A DNA stretch of 63,670 bases, the filler included, from Sphaeroforma arctica JP610 (Eukaryota), in assembly GCF_001186125.1 (NCBI RefSeq). It is 7 parts of 3 records of this genome, joined end to end, with 100 filler letters (N's around TTAATTAATTAA, not from the genome) between each part and the next. Parts side by side here need not be neighbours in the genome. Positions count along the whole stretch, not along the records: positions 1 to 14,749 come from NW_014040555.1; 6 more parts are not named here. The stretch is one strand, 5' to 3'. Made by a program: the position numbers and the translations under genes. Below, in pieces: positions 7,016-7,168 of this stretch; position 1 is the first letter of the stretch, and each line of letters opens with the position of its first letter. A model generated the notes under the pieces. It was not told where the DNA came from and did not search any database. It saw nothing but the letters and a program-made list of their open reading frames with translations.

Positions 7016-7168
7016 AGTACATACCTGGGCGGATTCCTTGGAGCTCATGCAGTCCAAGGTTTAGAAGGGAGGTGTTCGCCATTCGCACTGAGGCTTACGA
7101 TCCCTTTTACACATCGACAAATGTCTTTGTGTGCGTCTGAATTCGTTTGATGCGGCACTCTGGTGTCA
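7016..7168 (+). ncRNA. U1 snRNA variant with 5' end AGUACAUACCUG (pairs with GUAUGU donors)
   Basis: Complete U1 fold: helix H GGGCG/CGUCU; SL1 CCUUGGA-GCUCAUGCAG-UCCAAGG; SL2 GCC-AUUCGCACUGA-GGC; SL3 ACACA..GAC-AAAU-GUC..UGUGU; Sm-like AAUUCGUUUG; SL4 GGCAC-UCUG-GUGUC. Ends are approximate. Confidence 0.88.

What the first reader, a model, noticed from the sequence alone, without database searches (positions are those of the whole stretch)
7016..7168. U1 snRNA isoform with a re-programmed 5' splice-site recognition sequence (ACAUACCUG), in two copies beside a canonical U1
Seen: the genes at 7016-7168(+) and 27070-26918(-) begin AGUACAUACCUG, while 10757-10908(+) begins AUUACUUACCUG. The U-to-A change at canonical position 5 makes the variant the exact complement of CAG/GUAUGU. 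The variants do not look like pseudogenes: they are identical to each other over 140 nt while their flanks diverge, and both keep the promoter boxes. Their differences from the canonical copy are compensatory: SL1 UUUUGG/CCAAAG to CCUUGG/CCAAGG, SL3 CUC/GAG to GAC/GUC, and in the 7016 copy SL4 GGUGC/GCACC to GGCAC/GUGUC. Known: ACUUAC is almost invariant in U1, and budding yeast reads GUAUGU with a mismatch rather than a dedicated U1. Inference: this organism may have two U1 snRNPs, one for GUAAGU/GUGAGU introns and one for GUAUGU/GUGUGU introns.
Basis: partly seen in the sequence, partly recalled or inferred. Interest (0 to 1): 0.92.

Follow-up and report, generated by a model that had tools for sequence, protein, structure and literature searches.

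The report
Second U1 RNA matching GUAUGU introns
A single-celled relative of animals carries and transcribes a second version of U1, the small RNA that finds where introns begin, whose reading end matches the GUAUGU intron start that is common in this stretch of its genome, so it likely shares the work with the standard U1; the same change turns up in a conserved set of plant U1 genes.

Summary
Two U1 genes (7016-7168+, 27070-26918-) read ACAUACCUG; a third (10757-10908+) reads ACUUACCUG. The window is Sphaeroforma arctica. An independent DNA-type run confirms the base and both copies, and shows a second canonical-type gene elsewhere. Two RNA-type runs cover the variant and not its flanks. A related organism keeps the gene body almost unchanged (1 change in 126 nt, against 21 in 269 downstream). 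Against the canonical fold, 12 of 14 changed pairs are kept. The best reading is a functional U1 paralog biased to +4U donors and overlapping with canonical U1; exclusive division of labour is not shown. It is not unprecedented: Physarum is reported to carry both ACAUAC and ACUUAC U1. New are the holozoan case and five distinct plant U1 genes with the same change, four forming one clade. The scan found other altered-arm U1 genes on other DNA before, none with ACAUAC.

The parts
7016..7168 (+). U1 variant copy V1; 5' arm AGUACAUACCUG, variant A at 7021; start site inferred from TATA spacing
   Evidence: RNA-type contigs cover 7021-7166, including V1-specific SL4
6956..6993 (+). V1 promoter: AACCCACA at -60, TATAAATA at -30
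7080..7090 (+). V1 loop II with one inserted C in the U1A heptamer
7140..7149 (+). Sm-site-like AAUUCGUUUG, identical in all three genes
26918..27070 (-). U1 variant copy V2; body identical to V1 up to SL4, SL4 as in the canonical copy
   Evidence: one RNA-type contig (X19) runs into the V2 3' end and about 17-20 nt beyond
27093..27130 (-). V2 promoter, same boxes and spacing
10757..10908 (+). Canonical-arm U1 (AUUACUUACCUG)
   Evidence: small-RNA-type contigs 10760-10909
10697..10734 (+). Promoter of the canonical copy, same boxes and spacing
50300..50310 (+). Example target: kinase intron 2 donor AGG/GUAUGUAC, complementary to the variant arm from -1 to +8

Best explanation
This is a duplicated, transcribed class of U1 snRNA whose 5' arm is complementary to GUAUGU donors; it likely assembles into a working U1 snRNP and would preferentially, not exclusively, recognise +4U donors while canonical U1 favours +4A donors. 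Shown: two gene copies, promoter boxes shared with canonical U1, transcripts from both copies, structure-preserving divergence, constraint relative to flanks in a related organism, and frequent +4U donors in the window. Computed: the variant arm pairs about 4-6 kcal/mol better with GUAUGU/GUGUGU donors and about 4-5 kcal/mol worse with GUAAGU/GUGAGU donors. Inferred: Pol II transcription from the A 30 nt below the TATA box, capping, Sm and U1-70K loading, weakened or altered U1A binding, and any donor bias in vivo.
For: Base and both loci confirmed in DNA-type run X10: flat 26-30x flanks, 68x body, no other letter listed in the body. X18 (small-RNA adapters at loose ends) covers only 7021-7166 and X19 only 7033-7155 plus the V2 tail, with flanks at zero. 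Of 43 pairs of the canonical fold, V1 keeps 29 unchanged, 7 by two-sided and 5 by one-sided change, and breaks 2. Random placement of the same substitutions gives on average 1.2 two-sided and 9.9 broken (0 of 20000 reached 7). X17 (organism D) shows 1 listed change in 126 nt of body against 21 in 269 nt downstream, Fisher p 0.004. Donors: 10 of 14 homology- or model-supported have +4U, and 17 of 30 counting by-eye calls. AGGTATGT occurs 14 times against 3.6 expected, AGGTAAGT 2 against 2.6. An engineered U1-5a rescues a mutant donor that canonical U1 does not (PMC10870369, passages). Physarum and Entamoeba precedents. Four plant loci keep the same A through 11-18% body divergence.
Against: The U1A heptamer is broken by an insertion and SL1 loses two pairs. 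Unconstrained folds pair the variant's 5' arm with its own 3' region; the four-way junction appears only when the arm and Sm site are held open (-45.3 against -49.2 kcal/mol for V1). Many human U1 variants are expressed yet do not support splicing. ACUUACC is invariant in 227 Saccharomycotina U1 candidates despite switches to +4U, so a matching U1 is not needed. Commitment to a donor is argued to occur mainly at the U5/U6 hand-over. The second arm change (G2, pairing +8 C) finds no clear match: +7/+8 'AC' in 1 of 17 +4U donors. The donor sample is small, 16 of 30 are by eye, and some AGGTATGT hits lie in tandem repeats. Contig depths give no expression ratio.
Confidence: 0.55

Rival explanations
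1. The variant is a functional but interchangeable U1 isoform, perhaps stage-regulated; the U5A change is tolerated and does not sort donors in vivo.
For: snRNA isoform switching in development is widespread (PMC4291461, passages). Canonical U1 suffices in GUAUGU genomes. U5/U6 dominate donor commitment.
Against: The change hits an otherwise invariant position and matches the commonest donor class here. It recurs in plants and Physarum. The computed pairing difference is large.
Confidence: 0.2
2. The variant is a stable, selected RNA with a role other than committing introns to splicing, such as protecting transcripts from early polyadenylation or binding cryptic GUAUGU sites in the TG/TA-rich introns; loss of U1A binding would fit a specialised particle.
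For: The loop II insertion and weakened SL1 are fixed in both copies. GTATGT is over-represented throughout the window (182 against 106). Human vU1.8 has a damaged U1A site and a role in blocking premature polyadenylation. Two runs hold 3'-extended variant contigs.
Against: [quoted passage not shown] U1A sites vary among true U1s. The plant variants keep AUUGCAC.
Confidence: 0.12
3. Strict division of labour: two dedicated U1 snRNPs, each required for its own donor class.
For: By computed pairing, all 17 +4U donors favour the variant and all 11 +4A donors favour canonical U1. Two genes of each class are seen, and both are found as RNA in X18.
Against: That sorting follows from the +4 base by construction. 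Canonical U1 reads GUAUGU in yeasts. There are no functional data.
Confidence: 0.1
4. A transcribed pseudogene pair, or an assembly artefact.
For: Rfam scores are below the canonical copy's and below threshold. V1/V2 identity could reflect recent duplication or gene conversion.
Against: Confirmed in an independent DNA-type run; compensatory excess; constraint against flanks in organism D.
Confidence: 0.03

Closest known systems
Physarum polycephalum U1 with ACAUAC arm (as stated in Roy and Bowser, bioRxiv 10.1101/2022.06.08.495308; passages read; the primary Physarum papers are recalled, not read)
   Same: Same U5A change, GUAUGU the commonest donor, standard and modified U1 both present in one genome.
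   Different: Different supergroup (Amoebozoa against Holozoa). The coexistence is one sentence deferred to a later paper. No loop II insertion is mentioned.
Entamoeba (ACAAAC) and Mastigamoeba (ACGUAC) U1 (same preprint)
   Same: Natural U1 arm changed to complement a +4 pyrimidine donor.
   Different: The modified U1 is the single candidate reported per species, not a paralog beside canonical U1, and the sequences differ.
Human variant U1 snRNAs (PMC8457000, PMC10870369, PMC13172311; passages)
   Same: Expressed paralogs with arm changes and altered U1A/U1-70K sites.
   Different: They run at 0.001-0.15% of canonical U1 and mostly fail in splicing assays. Here the divergence is compensatory, the gene is constrained, and the arm matches a major donor class.
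Engineered U1-5a suppressor (PMC10870369)
   Same: Identical U-to-A change at position 5; works in cells.
   Different: Artificial, on an otherwise canonical human body.
Canonical U1 snRNA, Rfam RF00003
   Same: Whole-model match, four stem-loops, Sm-like site, same promoter as the local canonical gene.
   Different: U5A, G at position 2, loop II insertion, two U.U in SL1.

Membership tests
U1 snRNA (RF00003) | Homology over the whole model; U1 the best family of its clan (which includes U11, recalled) | tested here: met
   Model 1-166, E 1e-5 (V1) and 1e-7 (V2)
U1 snRNA (RF00003) | Rfam gathering score 69.5 | tested here: not met
   32.7 and 40.1 bits; the canonical copy also fails at 57.1, so this reflects lineage divergence
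U1 snRNA (RF00003) | 5' arm complementary to a 5' splice site | tested here: met
   Complement of CAG/GUAUGUAC; duplex -16.0 against -9.8 kcal/mol for canonical U1. The canonical ACUUAC itself is not kept.
U1 snRNA (RF00003) | Four-way junction, SL1-SL3 and SL4 | tested here: met
   41 of 43 canonical pairs kept in V1 and in V2; unconstrained folds differ
U1 snRNA (RF00003) | Loop II U1A heptamer AUUGCAC | tested here: not met
   AUUCGCAC in both variant copies. True U1s of yeast, Giardia and Trichomonas also depart from it, so I file this as a U1 paralog and leave membership of a standard U1 snRNP open.
U1 snRNA (RF00003) | Loop I U1-70K site | tested here: inconclusive
   GCUCAUGCAG, nearly the same as the local canonical copy; both depart from the Rfam consensus
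U1 snRNA (RF00003) | Sm site before SL4 | tested here: met
   AAUUCGUUUG, identical to the canonical copy
U1 snRNA (RF00003) | Transcribed as a discrete small RNA | tested here: met
   X18 and X19 cover the gene and not the flanks; library type is inferred from coverage and adapters, not on record
U1 snRNA (RF00003) | TMG cap, Sm/U1-70K/U1C binding, activity in splicing | not testable with these tools
   No such data available
Physarum-type U5A U1 | ACAUAC arm, coexisting canonical U1, GUAUGU a major donor | tested here: met
   donor frequency from 30 sites in one window only

The most novel reading that the evidence does not exclude
U5A U1 paralogs are a recurrent, overlooked class across eukaryotes (ichthyosporeans, flowering plants, slime moulds): genomes with many AG/GUAU donors repeatedly evolve and keep a second U1 that serves that donor class, so the two known classes of 5' splice site can be split at the U1 step by dedicated RNAs.
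Probability: 0.3. Interest if true: 0.88.

Novelty: new member of a known kind. Interest (0 to 1): 0.64.

Why it matters
The U1 arm is treated as invariant, and two recent surveys found no compensatory U5A in yeasts that prefer +4U. Whether natural U1 paralogs divide donors between them is an open question; human variants are rare transcripts and mostly inactive. Here both classes have two genes, both are transcribed, the variant is under constraint, and both donor classes are common. An isoform-specific block read out by the +4 base would therefore test the question directly. The plant genes, kept in tandem behind a canonical-arm U1 in three syntenic loci, offer a second, tractable system and suggest convergence.

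Tried and rejected
No whole genome is held, so there was no genome-wide donor census and no search for U6, U1A or METTL16 paralogs. No RNA holder is listed as such; run types were inferred from coverage. X10, labelled RNA?, behaves as DNA. No canonical contig was laid for X17 or X19 (X19's single record is the V2 contig cross-laid). The runs were chosen for holding the variant and a filter drops records, so this is no evidence of variant dominance. Depths in X18 (listed variant pieces 11-1321, 8 of 24 shown; canonical 109-894, 8 of 47 shown) are not a ratio. Position 7021 in X17 lies in the unlisted end zone; its A is inferred only from the word share (10 of 11). The arm of the second canonical-type gene is likewise unlisted; its two unlisted differences are probably SL1 partners (inference). 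Protein searches (sent in the wrong frame) found nothing. A canonical-pattern scan of viral contigs found 0. The variant pattern in prokaryote genomes gave 9 matches, none U1; this sets the chance rate and fits the 5 non-U1 metagenome hits L008-L012. The metagenome cap left no canonical denominator. A +8 C correlation was not seen. The link of AG at -2/-1 with +4U (13 of 17 against 4 of 11) has p 0.053 and is not established. The G at position 2 is not counted against function: in yeast all dinucleotide mutants were viable (PMC5766165 section 17). miRNA hits near 8700 are microsatellite noise. L005 is weak evidence: a single sequence next to a fragmentary histone gene.

Full report
Observation. 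V1 (7016-7168+) and V2 (27070-26918-) begin AGUACAUACCUG, and C (10757-10908+) begins AUUACUUACCUG. V1 and V2 are identical over 140 nt, 7012-7151, and differ only in SL4 (144/153); they are 115/153 and 121/153 identical to C. Each gene has AACCCACA at -60 and TATAAATA at -30 from the presumed first A. That pattern occurs 3 times in the window and in 0 of 100 shuffles. Rfam finds nothing at gathering level, but all three match the whole U1 model by E-value. Start sites are inferred from TATA spacing, not measured.

Organism. A kinase exon at 51.4 kb is 100% identical over 88% of the query to a protein that NCBI labels Sphaeroforma arctica, with a Creolimax-type homologue at 75%. No whole genome is held.

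Structure. On the canonical fold (43 pairs; z -3.35), V1 has 14 changed pairs: 7 kept by two-sided change, 5 by one-sided change and 2 broken. V2 has 11 changed: 5, 4 and 2. Scattering the same substitutions at random gives about 1 two-sided change and about 10 broken pairs (V1: 0 of 20000 trials reach 7; V2: p 0.00035). The quoted SL1, SL3 and SL4 changes are correct. Unconstrained folds of both variants pair the 5' arm with 3' sequence. With the arm and Sm site held open they give the U1 four-way junction.

Reality and copy number. Twenty of 24 listed runs hold the stretch or part of it, in 9 studies; none is on record as RNA. I laid 4 of them on two stretches. X10 covers everything at 26-30x and the variant body at 68x with no other letter listed, and shows both V1 and V2 flanks. 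On the canonical locus it shows a second gene with its own TATA box and different flanks. So two genes of each class are seen; tables were cut, so more cannot be excluded.

Expression. X18 has loose ends that I recognise from memory as small-RNA adapters. It covers only 7021-7166, including a V1-specific SL4 piece, and also only the body of C. X19 has one contig, 7033-7155 running into the V2 3' end and a little beyond, at depth 718 with zero on the flanks. Both copies are therefore transcribed. Contig depths of variant and canonical pieces in X18 overlap in range, but the tool states they cannot rank genes, so I give no ratio.

Conservation. X17 (organism D) holds the orthologous V1 locus. 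In the zone where differences are listed there is 1 change in 126 nt of gene (it turns the SL4 loop into UCCG) against 21 in 269 nt downstream plus 4 indels (Fisher p 0.004). The arm base itself falls in the unlisted end zone. X17 holds 10 of 11 sampled words where runs lacking the 5' end hold 8, from which I infer that the A is kept.

Targets. Gene models and homologues define 14 donors: 6 in the kinase, 2 in a helicase and 6 in a LicD gene. Ten have +4U, 3 have +4A and 1 has +4G. Adding 16 by-eye donors gives 17 U, 11 A, 1 C and 1 G of 30 (plus the site at 15632). Without annotation, AGGTATGT occurs 14 times against 3.6 expected (0 of 60 shuffles reach it; several hits are in tandem repeats), while AGGTAAGT occurs 2 times against 2.6. 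Computed duplexes favour the variant by about 4-6 kcal/mol on GUAUGU/GUGUGU and canonical U1 by about 4-5 on GUAAGU/GUGAGU; these energies ignore pseudouridine and proteins.

Elsewhere. One scan of metagenome contigs for a U1-shaped pattern with ACATACCTGG gave 14 loci. Nine are U1 at Rfam gathering level and 5 are not. Eight of the 9 are plant-type, representing 5 distinct sequences (L001=L006, L002, L003, L007, L004=L013=L014). Each has a TCCCACA box at -74 to -76 and TATA at -31 to -33. In three distinct syntenic loci the variant lies 630-1380 bp behind a canonical-arm U1, next to a GDSL lipase gene of Streptophyta type. With the arm left out, L001, L002, L007 and L003 form one clade (97/96) at 82-89% identity, and L004 is separate. 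Among those four, 98.9% of cells pair and 5 of 46 pairs change on both sides (the structure was derived from the same sequences). Their expression was not tested. One animal-type copy (L005) is weak evidence.

Literature. Roy and Bowser (bioRxiv 10.1101/2022.06.08.495308; passages) describe coevolved U1 arms in Entamoeba and Mastigamoeba. They state that Physarum, with GUAUGU as commonest donor, has ACAUAC U1 and in fact both standard and modified forms. Parker et al. (PMC10581693; passages) name this exact change as a possibility and find ACUUACC invariant in candidates from 227 of 230 Saccharomycotina genomes and 9 of 10 outgroups. Engineered U1-5a works in HeLa cells, while most natural human variants do not (PMC10870369; passages). 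I also saw passages of PMC4291461, PMC13172311, PMC11732430, PMC8457000, PMC5648754, PMC3510501, PMC13326754 and PMC10228655, and the abstract and one section of PMC5766165. Searches returned no paper on the Sphaeroforma or plant variants. Older plant U1 papers and the primary Physarum papers are mostly outside the library, and supplements and figures were not seen, so the plant class may have been recorded in alignments.

Mechanism and verdict. The likeliest account is a U1 duplicate that acquired U5A, which gave it full pairing with the abundant AG/GUAUG donors. It was then duplicated or homogenised in two copies and is maintained as a working snRNA overlapping in function with canonical U1 (0.55). 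The rivals are an interchangeable or stage-specific isoform (0.2), a non-splicing role (0.12), strict division of labour (0.1) and a pseudogene (0.03). It is a new member of a barely described kind, with good evidence of expression and constraint and an unexpected parallel in plants, but no functional test. Interest 0.64.

Noticed in passing
L001:2999-3156, L002:2916-3072, L007:2999-3155, L003:1691-1850, L004:2906-3071: Plant U1 genes with the same ACAUACC arm and intact USE-like and TATA boxes; three lie in tandem behind a canonical-arm U1 beside a GDSL lipase gene. Not found in my paper searches.
   Followed up: partly
outside the window (X10 records 2 and 6): A second canonical-type U1 gene with its own TATA box, a different loop I and SL1, and C at the position of 10855; it appears as the minority form in X18.
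   Followed up: partly
window 6956-6993, 10697-10734, 27093-27130: The U1 promoter (AACCCACA plus TATA at fixed spacing) resembles the plant TCCCACA-plus-TATA layout seen in the plant loci.
   Followed up: no
window 7012-7760 (X17): One contig starts at the V1 5' end and runs about 600 nt downstream (organism D lacks 200 nt there), suggesting read-through transcripts; X19 shows a short 3' extension of V2.
   Followed up: no
window donors: +4U donors tend to follow AG (13 of 17) and +4A donors less so (4 of 11), echoing the two known donor classes; p 0.053.
   Followed up: partly
L005:188-379, 1256-1301, 2999-3164: Animal-type locus with U2, a histone stem-loop with a fragmentary H4-like reading, and a U1 with ACAUACC; a single sequence.
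   Followed up: partly
window 28.5-36.4 kb and 62-63.6 kb: Broken ORFs that look like LTR-retrotransposon protease, RT, RNase H and integrase (recalled resemblance, untested); V2 lies about 1.5 kb from the first.
   Followed up: no
window 1100-5060+, 15000-24900+, 49565-52550+: Neighbouring genes: a helicase (Helicase_C), a LicD-family protein and a DYRK-type kinase.
   Followed up: partly
window 14794, 28521, 47122, 52876, 56662, 61816: A 12-base TTAATTAATTAA linker between paired 44-N runs, an assembly artefact.
   Followed up: no
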